DNA from: a virus
Virus genome (UHGV): UHGV-0324942
Reading direction: 5' to 3' (one strand)
Length of the DNA: 10,676 nucleotides
Part shown: in pieces, positions 1 through 10,676 of the stretch
Layout: each line of letters opens with the position of its first letter
Numbering within the stretch: the stretch's first letter is position 1
Made by a program: the position numbers and the translations under genes
Notes under the pieces: model-generated
Database searches by the model: none
What the model was told of the DNA's origin: nothing
The model's input: the letters and a program-made list of their open reading frames with translations, nothing else

Positions 1-756
1 CGGTTTGCGGCGTTTCACGCTGACTTTTTTCTTTTTCCCGTAATTAAGATCAAGCCAGTAAGCGCGTACCCCCGTATACGCTTCGCGGTCAGCAATGCGG
101 AACTGATGGCGATCGCCACTGCTGCGCGTGATGGCGAACGAGGGCAACGGCTGGCCCTGTGCGTTCACGCCACCGCCTGGCATGATGAATAACAGATTAC
201 CGCTTTTTACCGTAGTGATTGCGCCCAGCATTTCCGCTATGCGCGTAAGGAAGGACATGTCGCTTTCTTCGGTCTGGTCAGCGTGGTCGATTTCAATATC
301 CATCAGCATTTCGCTGATTTGTGGTTTCAGACCGTACCGATGAGCGATGGCGGATACCACGCGCTCAACGGTCACATCATGCCAGGACACCTCACGTTTA
401 ACGTTAAATTCATCCCGAAAATCTGCGCTTCTGGCTGAAACAGTCAGCCTGTCCGGCGGTCCTTCGTGAGCGATTTCATCAACAATGTAAGTGCCTTTTT
501 CTGTCAGCGGTTCTCCTTTCCAGCCAATGAGAACCGTCAGGCGCGCGCCCCGTGGCGGTAGCTGCAACTGACCATCCGCATCATCCAGCGTGATGGTGAG
601 CTGGTCCGCCTCAAATCCCCGGTTGTCGGTCAGTGACAGGCTCATCAGGCACTCTGCCACGCCTGACAGCGTTTTACCCTCCGCGAGAATATCAAAATCC
701 GGCATTTTCACGGGGTCTGTGCCCTGACTGAGCAATTGCATGGTGGTGTCGGTCAT
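1..756 (-). CDS. D: P2 gpD-like tail protein ('late control gene D' family), N-terminal 252 codons; 3' end runs off the window
   Basis: Absent from the ORF track because no stop lies in the window. Manual minus-strand translation from ATG (756-754) is open to position 1: MTDTTMQLLSQGTDPVKMPDFDILAEGKTLSGVAECLMSLSLTDNRGFEADQLTITLDDADGQ...SARSADFRDEF...SWHDV...ITRSSGDRHQFRIADREAYTGVRAYWL.... Strong SD (GGGAGGGAG, rc of 759-768) about 6 nt upstream. Family assignment from remembered gpD-like motifs, not a computed alignment. Confidence 0.7.
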   Translation of the reverse strand, partial: MTDTTMQLLSQGTDPVKMPDFDILAEGKTLSGVAECLMSLSLTDNRGFEADQLTITLDDADGQLQLPPRGARLTVLIGWKGEPLTEKGTYIVDEIAHEGPPDRLTVSARSADFRDEFNVKREVSWHDVTVERVVSAIAHRYGLKPQISEMLMDIEIDHADQTEESDMSFLTRIAEMLGAITTVKSGNLLFIMPGGGVNAQGQPLPSFAITRSSGDRHQFRIADREAYTGVRAYWLDLNYGKKKKVSVKRRKP

Positions 757-913
757 CTGCTCCCTCCCTGTGCGGCATGGTCGCATGTGCGTGCGGAGGG
801 GGTTACTGCTTTTTGTTGTCGCCGTGGCGGGAGAACGGCGCAGGGGTGAGATTACGCGCGTGGTGGGTGATGATTGTTGCCGAATCATTTAACGGATACA
901 AGGGGCTGAAGCT
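757..913. promoter_or_regulatory. Divergent intergenic region between D (minus) and the sheath gene (plus); presumed to hold the late promoter(s)
   Basis: 157-bp GC-rich spacer between two divergent starts. No convincing sigma70 -35/-10 pair and no clean TGT-N12-ACA dyad found by eye, consistent with an activator-dependent late promoter. Position inferred from gene arrangement only. Confidence 0.3.
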
Positions 914-2098
914 ATGAGTGAAACTCGTTTTCATGGTGCCCGTGTCACGGAAAGTACCGACCTGGTAACAGCGATTAATGATGTTGATTCCAGCGTTATC
1001 GGTATCGTGGCAACGGCGGATGATGCGGATGCGGAGCTGTTCCCGCTGAACAAGCCCACACTGCTGACCCGCGTCAATGACGTGCTGGGAAAATGCGGGA
1101 CTACGGGGACGCTTTATCGTGCGCTTAAGGCTATCGCAGACCAGGTGAGCACAAAGGTGATCGTCGTTCGCGTGGCTGAACACAAAGAAGAAAACGGAAA
1201 GACGCAGGATCAACTGGTTATCGGTGGTTCTGAATCTGACGGCAGCTATACGGGGATGTATGCGCTGCTTGTTGCAGAGCAGGATGAAAGCATCGGATAC
1301 CGTCCGCGTATTCTGGCCGCGCCGGAGCTGGACACGGAGGCGGTGACAAAATCCCTGTGCGTGATTGCGGGTAAACTGCGCGCGTTTGTGTATGCCACAT
1401 GTCATGGTTGTAACACGATGGCTGAGGCGATTACCTACCGCCAGAAATTCAACGAACGTGAGGTGATGCTCTTATGGCCTGACTTCATCGCCTACAACCC
1501 GAAAAGTGGCAAAAACGAAACGTTCCCCGCGCCTGCTTATGCGTGCGGCCTTCGTGCGTACATTGACCATGAGCAGGGCTGGCACAAATCGCTGTCCAAC
1601 GTTCCGGTTAAAAATGTGCTGGGGATGTCGAGGCATGTGTTCTGGTCGTTACAGGCCGAAGACAGTGATGCCAACAGCCTCAACAACAAAGAAATCACGA
1701 CCATTATTCGTCGTAACGGGTTCCGCTTCTGGGGCAACCGCACACCGGAAACGAACGCCTACATCTTTGAGGTGTATACCCGAACCGCACAGGTGCTGGC
1801 TGATTCAATTGCGGAAGCGCAGTTTGAAACCATCGACAGTCCACTGACACCTGCGAACGTGAAGGATGTTATCAGCGCCATCAGAGCAAAACTGGATTCG
1901 CTGGTTACTGTCGGGAAACTGATTGGTGCGGAGTGCTGGTATGACGTGGTGGATAACAGCACCACGGGTTTACGTCAGGGGCGTGTGCGTATTCGCTACA
2001 AATATACGCCCGTTCCTCCGCTGGAAGACATGGAGCTTTACCAGTCGTTTACTGATGAATTCTTTGGTCCCGCATTTGCGGTGCTGGGAGGTGCCTGA
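914..2098 (+). CDS. FI: Contractile tail sheath protein (P2 gpFI-like)
   Basis: 394-aa ORF; SD AGGGG 8 nt upstream of ATG; length and sequence (e.g. ...ADDADAELFPLNKP...) match the P2 FI sheath family; stop TGA overlaps the next ATG (TGATG). Confidence 0.9.
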   Translation: MSETRFHGARVTESTDLVTAINDVDSSVIGIVATADDADAELFPLNKPTLLTRVNDVLGKCGTTGTLYRALKAIADQVSTKVIVVRVAEHKEENGKTQDQLVIGGSESDGSYTGMYALLVAEQDESIGYRPRILAAPELDTEAVTKSLCVIAGKLRAFVYATCHGCNTMAEAITYRQKFNEREVMLLWPDFIAYNPKSGKNETFPAPAYACGLRAYIDHEQGWHKSLSNVPVKNVLGMSRHVFWSLQAEDSDANSLNNKEITTIIRRNGFRFWGNRTPETNAYIFEVYTRTAQVLADSIAEAQFETIDSPLTPANVKDVISAIRAKLDSLVTVGKLIGAECWYDVVDNSTTGLRQGRVRIRYKYTPVPPLEDMELYQSFTDEFFGPAFAVLGGA

Positions 2099-2610
2099 TG
2101 GCTGTACCAAAACATCTTCGCTTTTTTACGTTGTTTGTGGATGGTGAAAACGAAGTGGGTAAAGTGACATCCGTCACGCCACCCAAACTGACGCGCAAAA
2201 CCGACAGCTATCGTGGTGGTGGCATGATGGGGGCGGTAAGTATTGATCTCGGTCTGGACGACTCCGCGCTTGATGCGAGTTTTGTCATGGGGGGAGCTGT
2301 TCGTGCGCTGTTCCTTAAATATGGCGGCACGATTGACGGCACGCTGCTGCGTTTTGCGGGTGAATACTACACCGATGCAGAAAGCGATCTGTATGAAATC
2401 GAGATGCGCGGGCGTGTGACGGAAATTGATATGGGGGAGGCCAAACAGGGCGAAGCCACATCACACACTTACGCTGTCAAAAACACCTACTACAAGCTGA
2501 GCGTTAACGATCGCCCGCTGTGGGAAATCGACCTGTTGAACCACATCTACCGGAAGGACGGCAAGGACATTGTGCCTGACCGCATTCGTTCCGCGCTTGG
2601 GCTTGGCTGA
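2098..2610 (+). CDS. FII: Tail tube protein (P2 gpFII-like)
   Basis: 170-aa ORF directly after the sheath gene with overlapping stop/start; SD GGAGGTG upstream; size and position typical of FII; double stop TGA-TAA at 2608-2613. Confidence 0.88.
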   Translation: MAVPKHLRFFTLFVDGENEVGKVTSVTPPKLTRKTDSYRGGGMMGAVSIDLGLDDSALDASFVMGGAVRALFLKYGGTIDGTLLRFAGEYYTDAESDLYEIEMRGRVTEIDMGEAKQGEATSHTYAVKNTYYKLSVNDRPLWEIDLLNHIYRKDGKDIVPDRIRSALGLG

Positions 2611-2622
2611 TAAGTAATATGC

Positions 2623-2643
2623 AGGCGGCGCAGTGCGTCGCCT
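2623..2643 (+). other. GC-rich stem-loop between tube and chaperone genes (AGGCGGCGC-agt-GCGTCGCCT), no U-tract
   Basis: 9-bp stem (8 Watson-Crick pairs plus one G-U) with a 3-nt loop, 13 nt after the FII stop and 9 nt before the SD of E. Not a canonical intrinsic terminator. Confidence 0.3.
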
Positions 2644-2665
2644 CTGACTGAAAAGGAGACAACTG

Positions 2666-3040
2666 ATGAAAGATATCGATACTGAAACCCGGAATAACAC
2701 CGTAGCGGATGATGTGACGTCAGGTGAGGATATGGCTGTCGAACGTGGTGTAAAACTTTCCCGGCCAATTGAGCGTGGTGGCGAAAAAATCACGTATGTG
2801 GAGATCACCGGGGCTATTGAACAGGCTGGATCCCTGCGTGGTCTGTCTCTGTCTGATGTGCTGAATCTGAAAGCGGATACCATGTTCACGCTGTTGCCTC
2901 GCGTGACCTCGCCACGACTGGATGAAGTGATGATTAAAAAAATGTCGTCACGCGATTTTATTCAGTTGTGCGCTGTGGCTGTAAATTTTATGAGCGAGCC
3001 AGACTCTGGCGCGAAGAGCGTGCAGGAGACGGCAGCGTAA
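2666..3040 (+). CDS. E: Tail assembly chaperone (P2 gpE-like)
   Basis: 124-aa ORF with SD AAGGAG (2653-2658) 7 nt upstream of ATG; lies between the tube and tape-measure genes, the conserved chaperone position. Confidence 0.75.
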   Translation: MKDIDTETRNNTVADDVTSGEDMAVERGVKLSRPIERGGEKITYVEITGAIEQAGSLRGLSLSDVLNLKADTMFTLLPRVTSPRLDEVMIKKMSSRDFIQLCAVAVNFMSEPDSGAKSVQETAA

Positions 3041-3204
3041 TCACCCTGGTGTGCTTTGAGCACATCGAAGATCTGGTGGCGGATATTGCCGCCATTTTTA
3101 ACTGGTCGCCCGCCGAAATCTTCATGATGACGCCCGGCGAAGTGGTTAGCTGGCGCGAGCGGGCGGCACTTCGCAGCGGGAATGCAGACAATGAAGACTC
3201 TTGA
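2666..3204 (+). CDS. E+E': Predicted E+E' fusion chaperone made by programmed -1 ribosomal frameshift (slip site near 2983-2989 or 2936-2942)
   Basis: The -1 frame is open from 2938 to a TGA at 3202-3204 and overlaps the tape-measure start. A canonical X_XXY_YYZ heptamer A_AAT_TTT sits in the E frame at 2983-2989; an A7 run at 2936-2942 is an alternative. The arrangement matches the conserved chaperone frameshift of long-tailed phages. Confidence 0.5.
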
Positions 3205-5998
3205 TATCCGGGTCGCTTTCAGCGCCGTTGACAGGCTGACCCGGCCTGCCGAAAACGCCCGCCGCCTGATGGGGCAGTTTGGTGACTCCATCCAGCGAAC
3301 GCAGGGGGCGATCAAAAATCTCGAGCGTCAGGCGCGTTCATTTGAGCGCGCCCGTGACGCTGTCAGTAAAGCGGATGCGGGCATCGTGAAAGCACGACGC
3401 CAGCTTAACGCCCTTAATCAGTTACAACGCACGGGTACAGTGCTCAGCGAAAAACAACAAAAGCTGATGCAGCAGTTAAGCACCCGGCTTGAACGCCTGA
3501 ATGAATCGCGCACACGGGAAATTCAGAAAATGCGGGAACTTGGCGGAGAGCTGAAACGCCACGGCATTTCCCTGACAGGCAGCGATAACACCATCCAGCA
3601 GGCCATCAGACGCACCGAACAGTACAACAACCAGCTTGAACGCGAACGGCAGGCGCTTGCGCGTGTAACGCGGGCGCGTGAGCGGTATTCGCGCGCGCAG
3701 GAAACCGCGGGAAAACTGAAAACAGGTGGTGCGCTGACAATTGGTGCGGCAGCGGCTGGCGGCTATGCTGCCGGGCGTTTTTTGCAGCCTGCGATCGGGT
3801 TCGGGAAAGAGATGTCCCGCGTTCAGGCACTGACGCGAATCGACAAAAACAGCCCGCAGTTTAAGGCGCTGCGTGAGCAGGCGTTAAAACTTGGCTCTGA
3901 AACACAGTTTACTGCGAGTGATGCCGCCAGTGGACAGAGCTTTCTGGCAATGGCTGGTTTTACTCCGCAGGCCATTCAGGCCGCATTGCCCGGTGTTCTT
4001 AATATGGCGCTGGCAGGTGGCGTCGAACTCGGCGAGACGGCGGATATAGGCTCCAATATCCTCACACAGTTCAACCTGACAGCCGATCAAATGGACCGGG
4101 TTGGCGATACGCTGACAGCGGCATTCACCCGGACCAATACTGATTTACGCGCGCTGGGCGAAACCATGAAGTATACCGGTCCGGTTGCCGCAAAACTTGG
4201 TATCAGTCTTGAAGAAGCGGCAGCCATGGCCGGGATGCTTGCCAATAATGGTCTTCGTGGAAGCGATGCTGGTACGGCCATGCGCGCAAGTCTGTCCCGC
4301 CTTGCATCACCGCCAAAAGCTGCGGCTGATGCACTGAAAGAGCTGGGGGTGTCAGTTGCTGACGCCAGAGGCAAAATGCGCCCGATGGAGGATGTGCTGC
4401 TTGATCTCTATAAGGCGACACAAAAATACGGACAGGTGGACCAGATCTCCTTCTTCAAGGACATCGCCGGAGAAGAGGCGTTCGTTGGTTTGCAGACGCT
4501 TGTTGCGGCGGCTGGTTCAGGAGAGCTGCAAAAACTGACCAGAGAATTGCAGGGGGCAAGGGGAGAGGCCGATCGCGTTGCAAAAGTAATGGCCGATAAT
4601 CTTGATGGGGACCTGAAAAATCTCGACAGCGCATGGGAAGGTCTTCGTATTCGCATCAGTGATCTGGTTGACGGTCCGCTGCGTTCTGTCACGCAGTGGC
4701 TCACGCGGGTGCTTGAAAAAATCACCTCGCTGGCGCAGGCCCATCCGGTACTGACGCGCCAGCTACTGATAGCAGGCGGTGCGTTGCTGGCAATGACTGC
4801 AACGGTTGGCTCGTTGTCGCTGGCTATTGGTGTGCTTGCTGGCCCGCTGGCAAAACTGCGTCTTGGCTTTTCCCTCCTGACCGGTTCAATGAATGCTGTC
4901 AGACTCCTGCCAGCACTATGGGGAATGGTGACGGGTTCCGTTTCGTTACTGGGGGGCGCTATCGGGGCGTTGTTCAGTCCGGTCGGCCTTATCGTGGCTG
5001 CGCTTGCCGGAGCTGCCGTTCTCATCTGGAAATACTGGGATCCCATCAGGGCATTTTTTGCCGGGGTGTTCAGCGGGATTATGGAAAGGCTGACCCCGTT
5101 GCGCGAAACCTTTGAACGGTTTGGTCCTGTTTTTGACGCAATCGGAAGCGGGATCAGCCAGGTGTTTAACTGGTTTAAATCGCTGTTGTCACCGATGGAG
5201 TCCAGCAAGGAAACGCTGGATAAATGTACCAGTGCTGGCGAGATATTCGGTAACGTTCTTGGCGGTGCGTTACAACTTGTTCTGACGCCTGCAAAAATGT
5301 TGCTGGATACGCTGGCGTGGATACTTGAAAAACTTGGCGTCCTTCCGGATGAAGCGGAAAGGGCGCGCAAGAAAATCGAAGACGCACAGCGTGCGGCCAT
5401 TCTTCAGGACAAGGTTGCCTTACTTCAGGGGGACCTGGCGAAAATCAATCCGCCGAAGCCTGTGGAAAATGGCAATGGCACCGGAGGTGATAAACCCAAA
5501 GACAACAAACCGCTCACAGACAGCAATACCGGGACGCTGCGCAGACTCAGCAAAATTGCTGATAACACAGGTAAGCTGGTTGATGAGACGAAAAAACGCA
5601 TTGGCCCCGGCGATATTGTCTTTAAGAACCTGCCCCGCGCACTTGCTGTTCGTGGGGAGTGGCAGGAGCGGAAGATTGCGCAGGTCAGTAAGCCTGCCCC
5701 CGCAATTAATATCACACCCGTGGTCCCGGCTCCGCTGCCTCCGGCGCTGATCCCTGTTGTTGCGGCCAGCTCCCGCCCGGTGGCGGAGGCCATACAATCT
5801 CCAGTGGCATCAGTTCCTGTAACTTCCCGTAACCGGGAGCCTGTTGCCTCCGGATTTGGTGGTGAAATTCATGTTCATCTGCATAACGTTGTTACGCAGA
5901 ATCCCCGCGAACTGGCGAAACTGGTCGGTGAAATGGTCAGGGCAGAAATGGAACGGCGCGCCCGTGCCGGGCGTGGCAGTTTTTACGATAAAGATTGA
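3182..5998 (+). CDS. T: Tail tape measure protein (P2 gpT-like)
   Basis: 938-aa ORF; coiled-coil-like charged N-terminus, conserved tape-measure core (...ALGETMKYTGPVAAKLGISLEEAAAMAGMLANNGLRGSDAGTAMRASLSRL...), long hydrophobic Gly/Ala/Leu-rich central segment and Pro/Val-rich C-terminus. The true start may be the ATG at 3191. Confidence 0.9.
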   Translation: MQTMKTLDIRVAFSAVDRLTRPAENARRLMGQFGDSIQRTQGAIKNLERQARSFERARDAVSKADAGIVKARRQLNALNQLQRTGTVLSEKQQKLMQQLSTRLERLNESRTREIQKMRELGGELKRHGISLTGSDNTIQQAIRRTEQYNNQLERERQALARVTRARERYSRAQETAGKLKTGGALTIGAAAAGGYAAGRFLQPAIGFGKEMSRVQALTRIDKNSPQFKALREQALKLGSETQFTASDAASGQSFLAMAGFTPQAIQAALPGVLNMALAGGVELGETADIGSNILTQFNLTADQMDRVGDTLTAAFTRTNTDLRALGETMKYTGPVAAKLGISLEEAAAMAGMLANNGLRGSDAGTAMRASLSRLASPPKAAADALKELGVSVADARGKMRPMEDVLLDLYKATQKYGQVDQISFFKDIAGEEAFVGLQTLVAAAGSGELQKLTRELQGARGEADRVAKVMADNLDGDLKNLDSAWEGLRIRISDLVDGPLRSVTQWLTRVLEKITSLAQAHPVLTRQLLIAGGALLAMTATVGSLSLAIGVLAGPLAKLRLGFSLLTGSMNAVRLLPALWGMVTGSVSLLGGAIGALFSPVGLIVAALAGAAVLIWKYWDPIRAFFAGVFSGIMERLTPLRETFERFGPVFDAIGSGISQVFNWFKSLLSPMESSKETLDKCTSAGEIFGNVLGGALQLVLTPAKMLLDTLAWILEKLGVLPDEAERARKKIEDAQRAAILQDKVALLQGDLAKINPPKPVENGNGTGGDKPKDNKPLTDSNTGTLRRLSKIADNTGKLVDETKKRIGPGDIVFKNLPRALAVRGEWQERKIAQVSKPAPAINITPVVPAPLPPALIPVVAASSRPVAEAIQSPVASVPVTSRNREPVASGFGGEIHVHLHNVVTQNPRELAKLVGEMVRAEMERRARAGRGSFYDKD

Positions 5999-6010
5999 GG
6001 AGTCATGGCC

Positions 6011-6499
6011 ATGATGATGATCTACGGCATGTTTGTTTTTGAGCTGCGCACGTTGCCGCATCAGCAGTTACAGCAAAATAAAAGCTGGCGGCATGTGAAA
6101 AATGAACGCGTTAACCGTTCAGCAAGCTGGCAGTATATCGGGGCAGGCGATGATCGCATCGTTCTTTCTGGTGTGCTTTATCCTGAAATTACAGGTGGCG
6201 AAGTGTCGCTTTCGTTGCTGACCACGCAGGCATATACAGGACGCCCCTGGCCTCTGATTGATGGTGTCGGGCAGATTTACGGCATGTATGTACTGACTGA
6301 AACGAATACGACCCGCTCCGAGTTTGATCGCTACGGTAAGGCGAAAAAGATAGAATTTTCACTGACTCTTGAACGCTGTGATGAGGATTTGCGGGAGCGC
6401 CTGCAATCCTCATCGTTCAGCGATATGTTGTCCGGCTTCAAAGATAAGGTGACATCATCCCTTAATAGCGCGGCCAGCTCAGTTAAGGGGCTGCTCTGA
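6011..6499 (+). CDS. U: P2 gpU-like tail protein
   Basis: ORF track gives 6005-6499 (MAMMMIYGMFVFELRTLP...). SD GAGGAG (5997-6002) overlaps the T stop and is 8 nt from the ATG at 6011, giving an MMM N-terminus as in gpU; position immediately after the tape-measure gene. Confidence 0.8.
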   Translation: MMMIYGMFVFELRTLPHQQLQQNKSWRHVKNERVNRSASWQYIGAGDDRIVLSGVLYPEITGGEVSLSLLTTQAYTGRPWPLIDGVGQIYGMYVLTETNTTRSEFDRYGKAKKIEFSLTLERCDEDLRERLQSSSFSDMLSGFKDKVTSSLNSAASSVKGLL

Positions 6500-6575
6500 T
6501 TTAACGTATGTCGCCAATTTCCTGATGAAGGTGACTGGCGACTTGCTGTTGTATGTCCTTCTCAGAAAATTGTTT

Positions 6576-6604
6576 TTGAATAACAAACAACAGGATTTTA
6601 TAAT
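6576..6604 (+). promoter_or_regulatory. Candidate sigma70 promoter for the acetyltransferase gene: -35 TTGAAT (6576-6581), 17-bp spacer, -10 TATAAT (6599-6604)
   Basis: Hexamers and spacing read directly; perfect -10, 4/6 match at -35; about 50 nt upstream of the SD and GTG start. An imperfect palindrome TTGTTT-N9-AAACAA (6570-6590) overlaps the -35. Confidence 0.45.
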
Positions 6605-6655
6605 CTCTTAACCTTATAACATGTGTGGTCTGAAATAATAATTAAGGAGATTATC

Positions 6656-7228
6656 GTGCTGTCTTACCTAATGGCAATTCACTTTGTTTTATTTGGGAAC
6701 TCTACTAATTTAAAAAACTTCTGGAAACATGAAGTAATTCGGCGGAAACGTATGGATATCTGGAGGCTTTTAAGAGAGAAAAAGCAGCGTAACAGGAATT
6801 TCCTTTTCTGGTGGCGGTTGGCTAACGAAATGTATATTAATGGTAATAAATTACATAAGAAAGCAGCCAAGAAGTTAAACAGTAAAATAATTAACAAATT
6901 TGGTTGCGAAATTGGATTGGGCGCAAATATTGGAAAAGGGTTAACAATTCCCCATCATGCTGGAATTGTTGTTCATTTTGCTGTTGATGCTGGTGAAAAT
7001 CTGGTGTTACGACAGAATACGACCATTGGACAGATAGATGGTGACATACCTGGTTCAAGAGTAAAAATTGGTAGCAACGTTGATATCGGAGCTAATTGTT
7101 GCATCATTGGATTATCCCGTAAAATTGGGGATAATGTAAAAATAGGTGCAATGTCTTTTATAAATAAAGATATACCATCGAACTGCACATATATAACTAA
7201 AAAGAGCGGTGCTGTATTGTATAAATAG
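6656..7228 (+). CDS. Hexapeptide-repeat (left-handed beta-helix) acetyltransferase, serine-acetyltransferase/WcaB-like; AT-rich cargo gene
   Basis: ORF track 6623-7228; preferred start is GTG 6656, 6 nt after a perfect SD AAGGAG (6644-6649); ATG 6671 and 6752 are alternatives. Repeated [LIV]-G-x-x-x-x hexapeptide units (...IGLGANIGKGLTIPHHAGIVVHFAVDAGENLVL...VKIGSNVDIGANCCIIGL...IGDNVKIGAMSFI...). Composition is markedly more AT-rich than the flanking phage genes. Confidence 0.8.
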   Translation: MLSYLMAIHFVLFGNSTNLKNFWKHEVIRRKRMDIWRLLREKKQRNRNFLFWWRLANEMYINGNKLHKKAAKKLNSKIINKFGCEIGLGANIGKGLTIPHHAGIVVHFAVDAGENLVLRQNTTIGQIDGDIPGSRVKIGSNVDIGANCCIIGLSRKIGDNVKIGAMSFINKDIPSNCTYITKKSGAVLYK

Positions 7229-7235
7229 AGTACAT

Positions 7236-7273
7236 AAAGCCATCGATATTTCTATCGATGGCTTTTTCTTTTT
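7236..7273. terminator. Intrinsic terminator hairpin at the convergent junction (stem GCCATCGATA / TATCGATGGC, loop TTTC, then T5-C-T5)
   Basis: Perfect 10-bp stem (7239-7248 / 7253-7262), extendable by A:T pairs, followed by a T-tract on the plus strand; the minus-strand side has a weaker UUUAUG tail. Sits between the acetyltransferase stop (7228) and the G stop (7272-7274). Confidence 0.7.
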
Positions 7274-7850
7274 ATTGTGGGGCGACTGGCCACTCAATAT
7301 CTGCTGCTACTGTTGTATCAACACGATGCAACAATACTCGATATGTCTTCCATGCAGCCAGTAACGATGTCTCTTCCTCCGTCGCAATATCTAAATCTAT
7401 AGCATCCTGAAGTGGTGCAATATGCTCACTGGCTACCTGCATCAGGCTGTTTTTTGTTTCTTCCGCCTCCCTTATCCGAAATAGTTTTTCTGCTTCTGCA
7501 TCTTTCACCCAGGATGTGCCGTTCCACTTCTGATACTCTCCATACGGCGACAACCAGGTAACATTTTCCGGTAATGGACCGAGTTCAGAAATAAATAACG
7601 AGTCCCCTGATGCCACGTCATAAACCGTTTTACCCCGATGGTCTTCAACGAGATGCCACGATGCCTCATCACTGTTGAAAACGGCCACGAAGCCAGCCGG
7701 AATATCTGGCGGGGCAATATCGGTACTGTTTGCAGGCAGACCTGTATGAGGTGGAATGTATGCATCACCTTCACCAATAAACTCATTGGTTCCGGTCAGT
7801 AGATTATAAATTTTTATGGTCCGTGAGTGTTCACTCATTCTGAATGTCAT
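7272..7850 (-). CDS. G: Tail fibre assembly chaperone (lambda Tfa-like; occupies the P2 gpG position)
   Basis: 192-aa ORF; N-terminus [51 protein letters not shown]... closely matches the remembered lambda Tfa N-terminus; ATG overlaps the fibre stop (TAATG). Confidence 0.88.
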
Positions 7851-9976
7851 TATGCAAGCCTCACAATATAGTTAAATGCGATGTTTTTTACGGTGTTTTC
7901 TTTGTTACCCGTAGCGTTAACGGTGATGGTGTGTCCGTGGGGACCAATAATGACAGAATGGGCATGAGCACCAATGCCGATAGTGTGGTTATGGGCACCG
8001 ATATATACATTGTGAGCATGCCCGCCTGCGCTCGACGTGGTACCAGTACCTAACGCAGCGTTATAACCGGCTGATACACCATTCCCCGCGCCAGTGTGAC
8101 CAACAGGTATATTGTGTGAATGATTTCCAGCGCTATTCGTAGTTTTTGTGCCGTAATCAAATGAACTGGTCGTTTTAGTACCGTAATCAAACGACGATGT
8201 GGTTTTCGTCCCCAAATCCGTACTGGATGCGCTGGCGCTGTGGGTGTGCGATTTAATGCCGTCCTGTTCCTGAGACAATACGGCACGACCACTGCCGGGC
8301 TTGCCCTTAATCGTCCAGCCACGCATATCAGGAATAACGCCTGACGGATAAGCGACTGCAAGTTTCGGGTATGCAGATTTGTCAAAAGTCTGCCCCTGCA
8401 TCAGGGCATAGCCAGACGGAACGGTATCTGATGGCCACGGGATTGGTGCACCGACTGGATAAAACTCTGCAGGAGGATGAGCCGAGGTGTAAAGCTGCGC
8501 CCACGGCGACCAGTTTGCGTCGGTCGTATCCCGTCGTGAACGAATAAATGCCGGAGCATGAGCACCGCTTGTACCACTCCAGCCGATGAGTAACTCACCT
8601 TCGCCAACGGCTGTCATCCCTTTCAGGTGAATGATATTTCCATACGCTGTTGGATATCCGTTGTTATACACCTCGTATAACTCAAGACCTGTTGCCCCCT
8701 GCGTATTGTCTGTCAGCGCGGTTACCCGACCTTTTGAAGACAGATTAACTGATGATACTGCTGTTCCACCTGACGGTAATGCCCCGATCTCTGATGCCGT
8801 TGGCTTATTTCTGGAGTTATAGTCCCTTCGCCAGCCAGGTGAATAATCTGTTCCGTGATTAATATAGGTAAACTGGGCGTTAGTTGTTCCGCCACCAGTG
8901 GAGGTAGTCGGTGTGGTAATGCGGATCGTCATCGCTGACTTTATCCCCATTACTTCAATGACAGCTCCTGCGAGATGAATATTACCGCAGCCAGTATCAG
9001 TAATGATTTTATTATTGCCATAAGACCAGGAACCCTTGCACATCCAGTATGGATGGTTAAATGCTCCCTGAGAATCCAGCCACTCGATAAACTGTGCAGT
9101 CGTCCAGTCTCCTGTTGTTGTGCTTACTGACCCACCGAAGGCACGGCTGGCACCAATATTTTTCGTAAAGGTGTCTTTGCCAGGGATATCCGCACCGTTC
9201 TTATCTTTCTGCAGACGTTTCTCAGCATTGTCATTGGCTGCTTTTACTGCCTTTGGCGTTGCTGCCAGCGTTTCAGACGTGCTGTTGGTCGCGCTGCTTA
9301 GCTGGACTATCCCTTTCTGTGCTGTCGTTGCATCCTGTGCGGTGTATTTCCCGTCAGCCAGGTCATACGCGGCCTTAACTGCTTTTGGCGTTGCCGCCAG
9401 CGTTTCAGAATCGCTGTTAGTGGCGCTACTGAGTTGAACAAAGCCTTTTGCGGTCAGCGAGGCATCCGGGTGACATCGTGACTGTTCATGCTCTTTCAGT
9501 TTGTTATCCACGTAATCCACTGTGGCCATCACCATGGTGTTATCCACGGTAAGCGCCACAGTGGCAGTGCTGGATACGGTCAGAATGGTGCGAAATGTTT
9601 GTGCACGTCCGGACCCTTCGGCAACGGCTGGCTTGTAACTTTCGGCAGTATTGCCCACCGCGATTAAATCGCCGTGCTCATCAAACACACCAATTTCCCG
9701 GATCCAGAATCCGCCCGTTTCTGGAGGAATAACCAGCTCCGCAATAATGCGGTTCTGATGTGTTGCGTCCAGGATGACGCGATTAACAGTGTGTCGCCAC
9801 ACCTCATGCACCAGACGGGTCTGCTTACTGTCTGGTGTGGGCAACGCGCCGCCACCGTCGCCCACGGCCATATGAGTCAGGCGGACAGGCTTACCATCTG
9901 GCGCGGCTGCCTGAGCTAATTTTTTGGCACCTGTATCGGTGATAACGGTTTTAAATTTTCGTGTTGTGGTACTCAT
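7850..9976 (-). CDS. H: Tail fibre protein, mosaic: P2 gpH-like N-terminus with a lambda Stf/T4 gp37-like His-box distal tip
   Basis: 708-aa ORF; N-terminal region (...MAVGDGGG...HEVWRH...[10 protein letters not shown]...) and duplicated [21 protein letters not shown] motif are typical of gpH; C-terminus carries [10 protein letters not shown] tandem repeats and five HxH boxes (HSHN, HAHN, HNHT, HAHS, HGHT), ending ...[11 protein letters not shown]. Confidence 0.9.
8141..8233 (-). repeat. About three imperfect tandem copies of a 30-bp unit inside the fibre gene (encode [10 protein letters not shown] repeats)
   Basis: Plus-strand units tttgtgccgtaatcaaatgaactggtcg / tttagtaccgtaatcaaacgacgatgtgg / tttcgtccccaaatccgtactggatgcg read directly. 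Confidence 0.6.
9236..9445 (-). repeat. Two roughly 75-bp direct repeats with 132-bp period inside the fibre gene (encode the duplicated [23 protein letters not shown] motif)
   Basis: Near-identical stretches (...ctttggcgttgc[t/c]gccagcgtttcaga...) at about 9236-9313 and 9368-9445; they also create the spurious plus-strand ORF 9120-9437 with an internally repeated peptide. Confidence 0.6.
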
Positions 9977-9978
9977 GC

Positions 9979-10509
9979 TTAATCGTCCGGATAAATGGTA
10001 ATAACTTCACCGTCATGAGTTGCCGCCGCTGCAAAAATATCCCCCGGAATTTCCTGAATGATATTCAGCCCTGTCATGTGGCGGCTGACCGGACGGGCAT
10101 CAGCAATCAACCGCTCCATTTCCAGATACATTTCCTCCGTCACGCCACTGTCCAGTGTGCCGACTTCAACGGTAAATGTTCCCGGTTCTCCGCCGAACTC
10201 CCACCACTCAGACACGCGAATGAGGTATCCCAGCGGCTCAATGGCCCTGCGCAGTGCGCTGATGGTCCCTTTGTGTCGGTGTGTCAGCCATGCATCACGA
10301 ATCACCTGTCGTTTTGTCTCTTCCGGCCAGTTGCGATCCCAGCGGTCAACGGAAAATGCCCAGGCGAGATAAGGCAGCAGGTGCACCGGGCAGGTGTCCG
10401 GCGACCACAGCGTGTTGAGGTCTACCGGGATGTCTGTAATGCGCGTTCCGACAGCTTCGGCACAACGCATGAAACTGCTGGCTGATGGTGGTAACAGTGA
10501 ATTACTCAT
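9979..10509 (-). CDS. I: Baseplate protein (P2 gpI-like)
   Basis: ORF track gives a GTG start at 10542, but the ATG at 10509 yields [12 protein letters not shown]..., matching the gpI N-terminus, and the upstream codons belong to the J reading frame; internal ...[15 protein letters not shown]...ERLIADARP... resembles gpI. Confidence 0.85.
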
Positions 10510-10676
10510 TGCGCCCACCTTCGCTGATGGTGAACGACTCACAGCGCGCCGCCTGTATGTCGCTGATGGCCATATTCTGTGTGGGTTCGATTATCTCCAC
10601 GCGTTGCACACCGTGCACATGCAGTGCGGCAGCAATGGCGGACAACGCCACGTCCTGACCGATAAGCCCCTGCTCA
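10502..10676 (-). CDS. J: Baseplate assembly protein (P2 gpJ-like), C-terminal 57 codons; 5' end outside the window
   Basis: Minus-strand frame open from the window edge to TAA (10504-10502): ...[57 protein letters not shown]. Its last codons overlap the I start by 8 nt (ATGAGTAA). Identity inferred mainly from position upstream of I. Confidence 0.55.
   Translation of the reverse strand, partial: EQGLIGQDVALSAIAAALHVHGVQRVEIIEPTQNMAISDIQAARCESFTISEGGRNE

What the first reader, a model, noticed from the sequence alone, without database searches (positions are those of the whole stretch)
757..7271. Sheath-tube-chaperone-TMP-U block is inverted relative to D and J-I-H-G compared with collinear P2 order
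In P2 and its well-known relatives the late genes run V-W-J-I-H-G-(Z/fun)-FI-FII-E-T-U-D on one strand, with D the last gene of the F operon. Here D is divergent from FI, and J-I-H-G converges on the FI-U block. D is therefore uncoupled from the sheath operon and needs its own promoter. This is a genuine rearrangement (possibly marking a defective prophage or a distinct lineage) or an assembly artefact. No long inverted repeats were seen by eye at the junctions.
Basis: partly seen in the sequence, partly recalled or inferred. Interest (0 to 1): 0.5.

Follow-up and report, generated by a model that had tools for sequence, protein, structure and literature searches.

The report
Normal gene order of P88-like phages
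The flipped sheath-to-U tail-gene block is real, but it is the standard, long-fixed layout of a large branch of P2-related phages (phage P88 and relatives, carried by about a quarter of complete E. coli genomes), so it is ordinary and is neither an assembly error nor a sign of a broken prophage.

Summary
D (756..1, -), FI-FII-E/E'-T-U (914-6499, +) and G-H-I-J (7272..10676, -) lie as described, so FI-U is inverted relative to P2. No inverted repeats link the two junctions.

The layout is not unusual. The window is 92-95% identical to the Xuanwuvirus phages (P88 and others), whose annotated order is the same. The D|FI junction is intact in 1355 of 5426 complete E. coli genomes. The same order is annotated in Novemvirus, Reginaelenavirus, Reipivirus and Serratia KSP20. 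Of 80 GTDB loci, 61 have this order, all with a P88-like D; the 19 with a P2-like D are P2-type (collinear FI..U-D, or U-D where FI was not recovered). P88 and PhiSM form plaques (PMC5285337, PMC6456863).

Mechanism (inferred): the 157-bp D|FI spacer holds one Ogr-type box, TGT-N12-AGA, at 817-834. It is present in 55 of 58 distinct spacers. -10-like hexamers lie 46 bp to either side of it. This matches the P2 PP/PO bidirectional late promoter, so D gets its own Ogr-dependent promoter.

The U/G junction is a cargo hotspot. Here it holds an acetyltransferase moron where P88 has an invertase.

Verdict: already known, low interest.

The parts
1..756 (-). Gene D (late control D / tail baseplate hub protein). 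N-terminal 252 codons; the gene runs off the left edge of the window.
   Evidence: Open frame from the ATG at 756. Pfam Phage_GPD and phrog_52 tail protein. 55% identical to P2 D and 99% to P88 D. The full ORF of 369 codons is intact in the closest E. coli relative.
757..913 (.). Divergent D|FI intergenic region, proposed to be a bidirectional Ogr-dependent late promoter (PD leftwards, PF rightwards).
   Evidence: 98% identical to P88 across the junction. A motif-anchored alignment of 57 spacers, including the window's own, shows a conserved central box and symmetric -10-like hexamers. Function is inferred, not measured.
817..834 (.). Ogr/Delta-type activator box TGTCGCCGTGGCGGGAGA (TGT-N12-AGA, preceded by TTGT).
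   Evidence: A TGT-N12-A[CG]A box is present in 55 of 58 distinct D|FI spacers. The rate is 8.1% in control windows from the same loci and about 12% in shuffles. The half-sites are conserved and the spacer varies. The same TTGTTGT-N12-AGA occurs in the P88 O|P divergent region, and TGTTGT-type boxes occur in the annotated P2 activator sites. The box lies 88 nt upstream of FI here and 79-84 nt upstream in P2-type loci.
777..782 (-). Predicted -10 hexamer of PD (GACCAT on the D strand). Predicted transcription start near 770.
   Evidence: Conserved ATgaTT columns (AAtcAT on the D strand) lie 46 bp from the box centre in both subclades. This is an inference from the P2 architecture, where the box sits at about -55.
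869..874 (+). Predicted -10 hexamer of PF (GATGAT). Predicted transcription start near 881.
   Evidence: Conserved gA..AT columns lie 46 bp from the box centre, mirroring the D side. Inference.
914..2098 (+). FI, tail sheath.
   Evidence: Pfam Phage_sheath_1, Gp18_domIII_N and Phage_sheath_1C. 45% identical to P2 FI.
2098..2610 (+). FII, tail tube.
   Evidence: Pfam Phage_tube, E = 2e-45. 42% identical to P2 FII.
2666..3204 (+). E (2666-3040) and E+E' tail assembly chaperones. Candidate -1 slippery heptamer A_AAT_TTT at 2983-2989; the E' frame runs to 3204.
   Evidence: Pfam Phage_TAC_7 (below Pfam's cut-off, E = 2e-4) and phrog_103. A 'GpE family' CDS is annotated in relatives. The heptamer and frames were read from the sequence. 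The frameshift is inferred by analogy with P2.
3182..5998 (+). T, tape measure protein.
   Evidence: Pfam PhageMin_Tail, E = 9e-57. 33-41% identical to P2 T.
6005..6499 (+). U, tail protein and last gene of the inverted block.
   Evidence: Pfam Phage_P2_GpU, E = 6e-39. 46% identical to P2 U. Homology to P88 ends at 6505.
6576..7265 (+). Cargo (moron) at the convergent junction: a sigma-70-like promoter (6576-6604), a hexapeptide/serine acetyltransferase-like gene (6656-7228) and a hairpin terminator (7236-7265).
   Evidence: GC is 35% here against about 54% in the flanks. Promoter and terminator scan. Weak Pfam Hexapep hit and phrog_2154. RefSeq calls it 'serine O-acetyltransferase' in relatives. 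The same gene lies next to tail-fibre genes in unrelated phages (H21-H23).
7272..7850 (-). G-equivalent tail fibre assembly protein.
   Evidence: Pfam Caudo_TAP, E = 1e-40. The C-terminus is 46% identical to P2 G.
7850..9976 (-). H, tail fibre. The N-terminal part (to about 9224) is P88/P2-like. The C-terminal part belongs to an exchanged cassette.
   Evidence: Pfam Phage_tail_fib, Phage_fiber_2 and Collar. 72% identical to P2 H residues 4-251. The P88 homology boundary is at 9224. 93-94% identical to lambdoid side tail fibres over 7286-9439.
9979..10542 (-). I, baseplate protein. RefSeq relatives start it at the position equivalent to 10515.
   Evidence: Pfam Tail_P2_I, E = 3e-50. 61% identical to P2 I.
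10508..10676 (-). J, C-terminal end. The gene runs off the right edge of the window.
   Evidence: tblastn of P2 J residues 250-303. Annotation of relatives.

Best explanation
The window is the tail-gene region of a P88-like (Xuanwuvirus) P2-family prophage. In this whole clade of Peduoviridae the FI-FII-E/E'-T-U block is inverted relative to P2, while D-ogr keeps the strand of V-W-J-I-H-G. It is an old, fixed inversion that defines the lineage. It is neither a recent event nor a misassembly, and phages with this order are viable.

The proposed mechanism is as follows. The inversion carried the PF promoter, with its dyad-symmetric Ogr box, to a position back-to-back with D. The 157-bp D|FI spacer then works as a bidirectional late promoter. 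One Ogr/Delta-type box (TGT-N12-AGA, 817-834) sits about 55 bp upstream of two predicted start sites. PF fires rightwards (-10 at 869-874, start near 881) into FI...U. PD fires leftwards (-10 at 782-777, start near 770) into D and, beyond the window, ogr. This is the architecture annotated in the P2 reference record for PP/PO.

The other end of the block (U stop to G stop) is a convergent junction that collects cargo. Here it holds an acetyltransferase moron with its own promoter and terminator. P88 has a DNA invertase and an invertible fibre segment at the same place.

Shown: gene identities and orientations, the spread of this order, and the conservation and geometry of the box. Inferred: Ogr binding, the transcription start sites, and the direction and single origin of the inversion.
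For: **Order and identities.**

**Same order in characterised phages.** P88, phiT5282H (Novemvirus), 3LV2017 (Reginaelenavirus), ST16-OXA48phi5.4 (Reipivirus) and Serratia KSP20.

**Near-identity.** The window is 92-95% identical to P88 and relatives over 1-6505 and 9224-10676.

**Prevalence.** The whole window is collinear in 253 complete E. coli genomes. The D|FI junction is intact in 1355 of 5426.

**Clade signal.** Among 80 GTDB loci, all 61 whose D is closer to P88 have FI divergent from D. The 19 whose D is closer to P2 are P2-type: collinear FI..U-D where FI was recovered (13 loci), and U directly upstream of D on the same strand in the other 6, where no FI hit was found.

**Viability.** P88 is mitomycin-inducible and forms plaques (PMC5285337). 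PhiSM is a spontaneously released temperate phage (PMC6456863).

**Promoter.**
- A box is present in 55 of 58 distinct spacers, against 8% of control windows.
- The half-sites are conserved, the spacer is variable, and -10-like hexamers lie symmetrically at +/-46 bp.
- The P2 record annotates one activator site (3057-3087) between the PP and PO starts at 3016 and 3127.
- P88's own O|P spacer has the same TTGTTGT-N12-AGA.
- TGT-N12-ACA is the published P2 late-promoter consensus, and in Smp131 one palindromic site is assigned to both PP' and PO' (PMC3931495).
- ogr lies directly downstream of D in P88, in the O103 relative and in ST16phi5.4. In phiT5282H a small transcriptional regulator occupies that position.

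**Need for a separate promoter.** A hairpin terminator at 7236-7265 follows G, and 6 kb of opposite-strand genes separate G from D. D therefore cannot be read from the V-G transcript.
Against: - No transcription start, Ogr binding or expression data exist for any member of this clade in what I could search. The promoter model rests on conservation and analogy alone.
- The window's box is TGT-N12-AGA, one mismatch from the P2 consensus. The predicted -10 hexamers are weak (GACCAT, GATGAT), as in P2 late promoters.
- ogr itself is outside the window.
- The polarity of the inversion (P2 order ancestral) is only weakly established. For head and F-block genes P88 is as far from P2 as phiCTX is, so phiCTX is not a clean outgroup. 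The argument then rests on U-D adjacency in other contractile tails (Mu, R-pyocins), which comes from general knowledge and was not tested here.
- I found no paper that explicitly describes this inversion. 'Already known' here means documented in annotated public genomes and taxonomy, not discussed in print.
Confidence: 0.85

Rival explanations
1. Assembly artefact: a misjoin at 757-913 or 6500-7271 flipped the FI-U block in this assembly.
For: None found. The only support is the a priori argument that the order differs from P2.
Against: The identical junction occurs in 1355 complete, mostly long-read-finished, E. coli genomes. It also occurs in 13 phage records at 94-98% identity and in four other phage genera sequenced independently. 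The whole 10.7-kb window is collinear in 253 genomes.
Confidence: 0.01
2. A recent, strain-specific inversion that marks a decaying or defective prophage.
For: Some relatives are decaying. O157 genomes match only from window position 489 rightwards, so they lack the D sequence to its left. IS100 insertions occur in phages 520873 and 503458.
Against: - All tail ORFs in the window are intact, and the E/E' frameshift configuration is preserved.
- Viable phages P88 and PhiSM have the same order.
- The order tracks D phylogeny across about 27 genera.
- No inverted repeats lie at the junctions.
Confidence: 0.02
3. The layout arose by module replacement rather than in-situ inversion: the FI-U cassette came from a more distant myovirus and was inserted in the opposite orientation.
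For: FI is 45% and FII 42% identical to P2, while D is 55% and I 61%. In collinear lineages whose D is 50-53% identical to P2, FI stays at 64-69%. P2 and phiCTX FI are 66% identical, yet P88 FI is only 46-49% identical to either.
Against: - Head and packaging genes (Q, P, O, N, M) show the same pattern as the F block (P88-P2 is about equal to P88-CTX and lower than P2-CTX). The F block is therefore not the odd module. If anything, I, J, V and D are the genes unusually close to P2.
- The Ogr box sits at the same distance from FI in both arrangements (79-88 nt).
- Either history gives the same present-day structure.
Confidence: 0.12
4. D is expressed from an independent promoter, either constitutive sigma-70 or otherwise not sharing the PF Ogr box. 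The central box would then serve FI only.
For: The D-side -10 (GACCAT) is weak. The consensus scan found no sigma-70 promoter in 757-913 on either strand. Conserved GC-rich CGCGCG tracts on the D side have no assigned role.
Against: - The D-side hexamer is conserved at exactly the mirror distance (46 bp) from the box in both subclades of the P88-type group.
- The P2 record annotates one site for two divergent late promoters with starts 111 bp apart. That matches the predicted spacing of about 111 bp here.
- D is a virion protein that is needed late, together with the F-operon products.
Confidence: 0.2

Closest known systems
Escherichia phage P88 and the genus Xuanwuvirus (Peduoviridae): P884B11, 520873, 503458, 500465-2, Citrobacter Shae_phiSM, PhiR44_2, Chuche
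   Same: 92-95% nucleotide identity over 1-6505 and 9224-10676. The gene order and orientations are identical: D(-) | FI FII E E' T U(+) | ... G H I J(-). The D|FI spacer is almost identical.
   Different: Between U and the tail-fibre genes P88 carries a Cin/Gin-type DNA invertase plus an alternative fibre/tfa segment. This window has no invertase there. It has a low-GC acetyltransferase, a different tfa and a different H C-terminal domain (6506-9223).
Bacteriophage P2 (Peduovirus) tail late operons V-W-J-I-H-G and FI-FII-E-E'-T-U-D
   Same: The same gene set, with 33-72% protein identity. The E/E' frameshift arrangement is the same, as are the Ogr-type late-promoter box upstream of FI, D-ogr adjacency and a cargo slot after G (fun(Z) in P2).
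   Different: FI-U is inverted. D is no longer the last gene of the F operon and is divergent from FI. R-S-V are contiguous in P88-type phages, with no orf30/PV gap. For head and F-block genes the lineage is as far from P2 as Pseudomonas phiCTX is.
P2 PP/PO divergent late promoters (one Ogr site between two start sites)
   Same: One dyad-type box lies midway in a spacer of about 160 bp between two divergent late genes, with -10-like elements about 46 bp either side. This implies starts about 111 bp apart, as in P2 (3016 and 3127).
   Different: Here the arrangement drives D and FI rather than P and O. There is no experimental mapping, and the box reads AGA rather than ACA in the window.
Other Peduoviridae with the same order: Enterobacter phiT5282H (Novemvirus), Klebsiella 3LV2017 (Reginaelenavirus), Klebsiella ST16-OXA48phi5.4 (Reipivirus), Serratia KSP20
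   Same: D is divergent from FI, FI-U converges on the tail-fibre genes, and the Ogr-type box is conserved in the spacer.
   Different: Only 67-73% nucleotide identity at the junction. The cargo at the U/fibre junction differs: none in phiT5282H or 3LV2017, and DUF262 plus a hypothetical gene in ST16phi5.4.

Membership tests
Xuanwuvirus / P88-like Peduoviridae | High nucleotide identity to P88-type genomes. The ICTV genus level is about 70% over the genome (from general knowledge). | tested here: inconclusive
   92-95% identity, but only over the 74% of this 10.7-kb window that aligns. The rest of the prophage is outside the window.
Xuanwuvirus / P88-like Peduoviridae | Gene order D(-) | FI-FII-E-E'-T-U(+) | fibre region | G-H-I-J(-). 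| tested here: met
Xuanwuvirus / P88-like Peduoviridae | D protein falls in the P88-type group rather than the P2-type group. | tested here: met
   99% identical to P88 D and 51% to P2 D. Among the GTDB loci, every D at least 61% identical to P88 D has this order.
Peduovirus (P2 sensu stricto) tail-gene organisation | FI-FII-E-T-U-D collinear on the same strand as V-W-J-I-H-G, with D last in the F operon. | tested here: not met
   FI-U lies on the opposite strand to D and J-I-H-G.
P2-type Ogr/Delta-dependent late promoter | TGT-N12-ACA dyad centred near -55. | tested here: inconclusive
   TGT-N12-AGA at 817-834 has one mismatch. It is conserved in 55 of 58 spacers and lies 46 bp from -10-like hexamers on both sides. 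The positions relative to the transcription starts are predicted, not measured.
P2-type Ogr/Delta-dependent late promoter | A cognate Ogr/Delta zinc-finger activator is encoded by the phage. | not testable with these tools
   ogr is outside the window. It lies directly downstream of D in P88 and in the closest E. coli relative.
P2-type Ogr/Delta-dependent late promoter | Activator-dependent transcription in vivo or in vitro. | not testable with these tools
   Requires 5'-end mapping or reporter assays.
Invertible tail-fibre (Gin/Cin/Hin-type) switch, as in P88 | A serine invertase gene and inverted crossover sites flanking alternative fibre segments. | tested here: not met
   The window has no invertase ORF. 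P88's invertase region is replaced. No suitable inverted repeats were found.

The most novel reading that the evidence does not exclude
The D|FI spacer of the whole P88-type clade may be a bidirectional late promoter in which a single dyad-symmetric Ogr box activates both PF and a new PD that drives D-ogr. I found no description of this. If so, the inversion was tolerated because it delivered a ready-made, orientation-independent activator site to D. It would also have created an Ogr-activated D-ogr unit, that is, positive feedback on the activator. This would be a concrete case of a symmetric activator site buffering an operon-breaking rearrangement.
Probability: 0.55. Interest if true: 0.3.

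Novelty: already known. Interest (0 to 1): 0.12.

Why it matters
The finding has little weight as a discovery. This gene order is the norm for a recognised genus and several sister genera, and it sits in about a quarter of complete E. coli genomes.

It has some practical value:
- Annotators and prophage-calling tools should not treat departure from the P2 order as evidence of misassembly or decay.
- The RefSeq annotations of the two E. coli relatives examined shorten D at this junction, and other hit listings carry the same product names.
- The conserved single Ogr-type box between D and FI gives a simple, testable picture of how D stays co-regulated with the sheath operon after being cut out of it.

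Tried and rejected
1. **Inverted repeats at the two junctions as the cause or a trace of the inversion.** None were found beyond chance-level 15-28 nt matches.

2. **A strict TGT-N12-ACA search in the window.** It gave one hit, inside FI, at chance level. The real box has AGA, and I recognised it only by comparing spacers across genera.

3. **A generic sigma-70 scan of 757-913.** It found nothing, as expected for activator-dependent late promoters.

4. **F-block replacement from a foreign lineage.** The low FI and FII identity to P2 suggested it. It became unlikely once head genes showed the same divergence pattern against P2 and phiCTX.

5. **HP1 as an outgroup.** Its tail-gene layout is too different to polarise the inversion.

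6. **Literature searches for an explicit description of the inversion.** I searched for P88, Xuanwuvirus, KSP20, 'opposite orientation' and xenorhabdicin and found none. One search failed on term length.

7. **D truncation in relatives.** RefSeq calls D as 266 aa, but the ORF is intact, so this is an annotation quirk.

8. **An idea I could not test.** The Cin/Gin-type invertase that sits at one breakpoint in P88 might have caused the ancestral inversion through a pseudo-site. More distant members with the same order lack the invertase.

Full report

Yes. The ORF list, Pfam, PHROGs and tblastn of P2 proteins against the window give this map:

- D starts at 756 and reads leftwards. It is open for all 252 codons to the window edge.
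- A 157-bp spacer follows (757-913).
- On the + strand: FI 914-2098, FII 2098-2610, E 2666-3040 with an overlapping E' frame to 3204, T 3182-5998 and U 6005-6499.
- Next comes a low-GC (35%) hexapeptide acetyltransferase gene, 6656-7228 (+).
- On the - strand: G/tfa 7850-7272, H 9976-7850, I 10542-9979 and the end of J.

The P2 reference record has V-W-J-I-H-G-fun(Z)-FI-FII-E-E'-T-U-D-ogr, with every gene except fun(Z) on one strand. The repeat search found no inverted repeat linking the two junctions, only chance-level 15-28 nt pairs.

**2. What is it?**

It is the ordinary tail region of a P88-like prophage.

*Identity to known phages.* Megablast against phage records shows 92-95% identity to the Xuanwuvirus phages P88, P884B11, 520873, 503458, 500465-2, Citrobacter Shae_phiSM and PhiR44_2. 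The aligned segments are 1-6505 and 9224-10676. The annotated P88 genome has the same order and orientations: D(-), then sheath, tube, two chaperone CDSs, tape measure and U (+), then an invertase and fibre segment, then tfa, H, I, J, W, V, S, R and so on (-).

*Prevalence in E. coli.* The whole window is collinear in 253 complete genomes, at up to 97.1% identity. An 1101-bp probe across the D|FI junction is intact in 1355 of 5426 genomes, including UTI89 and O157 strains.

*Other genera.* The same divergent D|FI junction and convergent U/fibre junction are annotated in Enterobacter phage phiT5282H (Novemvirus), Klebsiella 3LV2017 (Reginaelenavirus) and Klebsiella ST16-OXA48phi5.4 (Reipivirus). 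The divergent D|FI junction is also annotated in the 6-kb Serratia KSP20 fragment, which labels orf2 as gpD-like divergent from orf3, gpFI-like.

*Wider sampling.* I scanned one genome per GTDB species with a D-protein alignment and classified the 80 best loci by tblastn.
- 61 loci have FI divergent from D. In all of them D is 61-99% identical to P88 D.
- They come from about 27 genera of Enterobacterales: Salmonella, Klebsiella, Enterobacter, Citrobacter, Serratia, Erwinia, Pantoea, Pectobacterium, Brenneria, Edwardsiella, Providencia, Morganella, Xenorhabdus, Photorhabdus, Yersinia, Hafnia and others.
- The 19 loci whose D is closer to P2 are P2-type. Thirteen show the full collinear FI...U-D order. 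In the other six no FI hit was recovered (three are too short on that side), but U lies directly upstream of D on the same strand.

Gene order therefore tracks D similarity without exception. This fits a single old inversion that defines a clade.

*Viability.* P88 is mitomycin-inducible and forms plaques (PMC5285337). PhiSM is a spontaneously released temperate phage that lysogenises K-12 (PMC6456863). The order is thus compatible with full function.

That condition is met.

**3. How does D get expressed?**

Six kilobases of opposite-strand genes and a strong hairpin terminator (7236-7265) separate D from the V-G transcript.

*The box.* Comparing the D|FI spacer across genera shows a conserved TTGTTGTC...A(G/C)A element. 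In the window it is TGTCGCCGTGGCGGGAGA at 817-834, that is TGT-N12-AGA.
- Among 58 distinct spacers from the GTDB loci, 55 carry a TGT-N12-A[CG]A box, nearly always a single one in mid-spacer.
- The rate is 8.1% in 3847 length-matched control windows from the same loci, and about 12% in shuffled spacers.
- The half-sites are conserved while the 12-nt spacer varies freely, as expected for a dimer-binding site.

TGT-N12-ACA is the published consensus of the four Ogr-dependent P2 late promoters (PMC3931495, citing Christie and Calendar 1985 and Julien and Calendar 1995).

*The geometry.* In the motif-anchored alignment, -10-like hexamers are conserved 46 bp from the box centre on both sides.
- On the FI side the consensus is gA..AT; the window has GATGAT at 869-874.
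- On the D side the consensus is ATgaTT, which reads AAtcAT on the D strand; the window has GACCAT, the complement of 777-782.

This puts the box near -55 of two predicted starts, about 881 (+) and 770 (-), roughly 111 bp apart.

*The precedent.* The P2 record annotates exactly this design for PP/PO: one activator site (3057-3087) between starts at 3016 and 3127. P88's own O|P spacer carries the same TTGTTGT-N12-AGA. In Smp131 one palindromic site is assigned to both PP' and PO'.

*The box travels with FI.* In P2-type loci the box lies 79-84 nt upstream of FI, and here it lies 88 nt upstream. An inversion with one breakpoint upstream of the PF box and the other at the U/D boundary would place a symmetric activator site directly in front of D.

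*ogr.* An Ogr-like gene follows D on the same strand in P88 (an unannotated 86-codon ORF with an N-terminal CxxC and a second cysteine pair, matching the transcription-regulator family phrog_603). The same is true in the closest E. coli relative and in ST16phi5.4; in phiT5282H a small transcriptional regulator occupies that position. PD would therefore drive D-ogr, much as the P2 F operon reads through into ogr.

All of this is inference from conservation and analogy. I had no transcript or binding data.

**4. The other junction**

Homology to P88 stops six bases after the U stop codon (6505) and resumes inside H at 9224. P88 has a Cin/Gin-type invertase and an alternative fibre/tfa segment in that interval.

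The window instead has an AT-rich cassette:
- a sigma-70-like promoter, TTGAAT-17-TATAAT, at 6576-6604;
- an acetyltransferase (phrog_2154, a weak Hexapep hit; RefSeq calls it 'serine O-acetyltransferase');
- a hairpin terminator;
- a different tfa and a different H C-terminal domain.

The cassette is 93-96% identical to sequences next to side-tail-fibre genes of lambdoid and other coliphages (H14-H23). Other members have nothing, or DUF262 genes, in this slot. P2 has fun(Z) after G. The 3' side of the fibre genes is thus a general cargo and fibre-exchange hotspot. This explains why the right-hand 'junction' looks different from P88.

**5. In-situ inversion or module replacement?**

FI and FII are only 45% and 42% identical to P2, whereas D and I are 55% and 61%. 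That hinted at a foreign F block.

A three-way comparison of P88, P2 and phiCTX shows the same pattern for Q, P, O, N and M. In each case P88-P2 is about equal to P88-CTX and lower than P2-CTX. The P88 lineage is simply a deep branch for most structural genes. I, J, V and D are the genes relatively close to P2.

I therefore see no specific support for replacement of the F block (rival, about 0.12). The polarity of the inversion is not rigorously rooted. I regard the P88 order as derived because U-D adjacency on one strand is shared by P2, phiCTX and, from general knowledge, Mu and the R-type pyocins.

**6. Comparison with the known, and novelty**

By gene order, D similarity and nucleotide identity the window belongs with Xuanwuvirus. 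Genus membership of the whole prophage cannot be settled from 10.7 kb. It fails the defining P2 (Peduovirus) tail-operon order. It does not contain the P88 invertase switch.

The arrangement is documented in annotated public genomes and in ICTV-classified genera. I found no paper in the held library that comments on the inversion itself.

The only modestly new element is the conserved single Ogr-type box with mirror-image -10 elements between D and FI. It predicts a PP/PO-like bidirectional late promoter.

**7. Verdict**

It is a distinct lineage, and it is neither an artefact nor a defect.
- Novelty: already known.
- Interest is low (0.12).
- The most novel reading still open is the shared-box PD/PF promoter, as the reason the inversion was tolerated. 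I put its probability at about 0.55 and its interest, if true, at about 0.3.

Noticed in passing
window 6506-9223: This interval is not homologous to P88, which has a DNA invertase plus an invertible fibre segment here. The window carries a low-GC acetyltransferase moron (6656-7228, with its own sigma-70-like promoter at 6576-6604 and a hairpin terminator at 7236-7265), a different tfa and a different H C-terminal domain. The cassette is 93-96% identical to regions next to side-tail-fibre genes of lambdoid and other coliphages (JL22, Ro157c2YLVW, mEp460). What the acetyltransferase does is unknown; LPS or O-antigen modification is a guess.
   Followed up: partly
window 2983-2989: Candidate -1 slippery heptamer A_AAT_TTT, in the 0-frame of E and inside the E/E' overlap. 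It would give the E+E' fusion that ends at 3204.
   Followed up: partly
L090 18647-19756; L002 17653-18500 (equivalent to window 1-756): RefSeq/PGAP annotates D in the two E. coli relatives examined as a short (264-266 aa) 'contractile injection system protein, VgrG/Pvc8 family' with an internal start, plus a spurious partial 'hypothetical protein' pseudogene on the other strand. Several other genomes in the junction-search listing carry the same pair of product names. In L090 the 369-codon D ORF is nonetheless intact. This looks like an annotation quirk at the divergent junction.
   Followed up: yes
L002 14091-17488 (E. coli O26:H11 11368): A His-Xaa-Ser radical-SAM cluster (hxsDBCA) is inserted between ogr and D of the homologous prophage. 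The D-ogr spacer is therefore another cargo slot.
   Followed up: no
L090 32452-34329 (E. coli O103:H2 FWSEC0007): A 625-aa DUF6645 gene sits between lysC and the tail gene R of the homologous prophage. It is absent from P88 and from the O26 copy.
   Followed up: no
L008 (NZ_JBQPOM010000071.1, 'Vagococcus sp. WN89Y'): A contig labelled as a Gram-positive Vagococcus carries a D gene 99% identical, and an FI gene 97% identical, to the E. coli phage versions. It is probably contamination or a mislabelled assembly.
   Followed up: no
Citrobacter phage Shae_phiSM (OR565851.1) vs PMC6456863: The paper describes PhiSM by electron microscopy as having a long non-contractile, siphovirus-type tail. The deposited genome nonetheless matches this D/tape-measure/tail-protein region at about 95% identity over the same aligned segments as P88, which include the sheath and tube genes. 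The morphology assignment and the genome seem inconsistent.
   Followed up: no
L001 (P88) vs L003 (P2) vs L088 (phiCTX): For Q, P, O, N, M, FI, FII, E and U, P2 is closer to Pseudomonas phiCTX than to coliphage P88. For I, J, V and D, P88 is as close or closer to P2. This points to a mosaic history of the baseplate, fibre and D genes among enterobacterial phages.
   Followed up: partly
window 9222-9448 and 8139-8198: There are internal direct repeats in H: two 95-nt units at 77% identity (the Phage_fiber_2 repeats, near the P88 homology boundary at 9224), and two 30-nt units encoding [10 protein letters not shown]. The first pair is a likely recombination site for fibre-domain swapping.
   Followed up: no
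window 790-800 and equivalents in L010-L067: A conserved CGCGCGCG-rich tract lies between the predicted PD -10 and the Ogr box on the D side of the spacer. It has no counterpart on the FI side, and its role is unknown.
   Followed up: no
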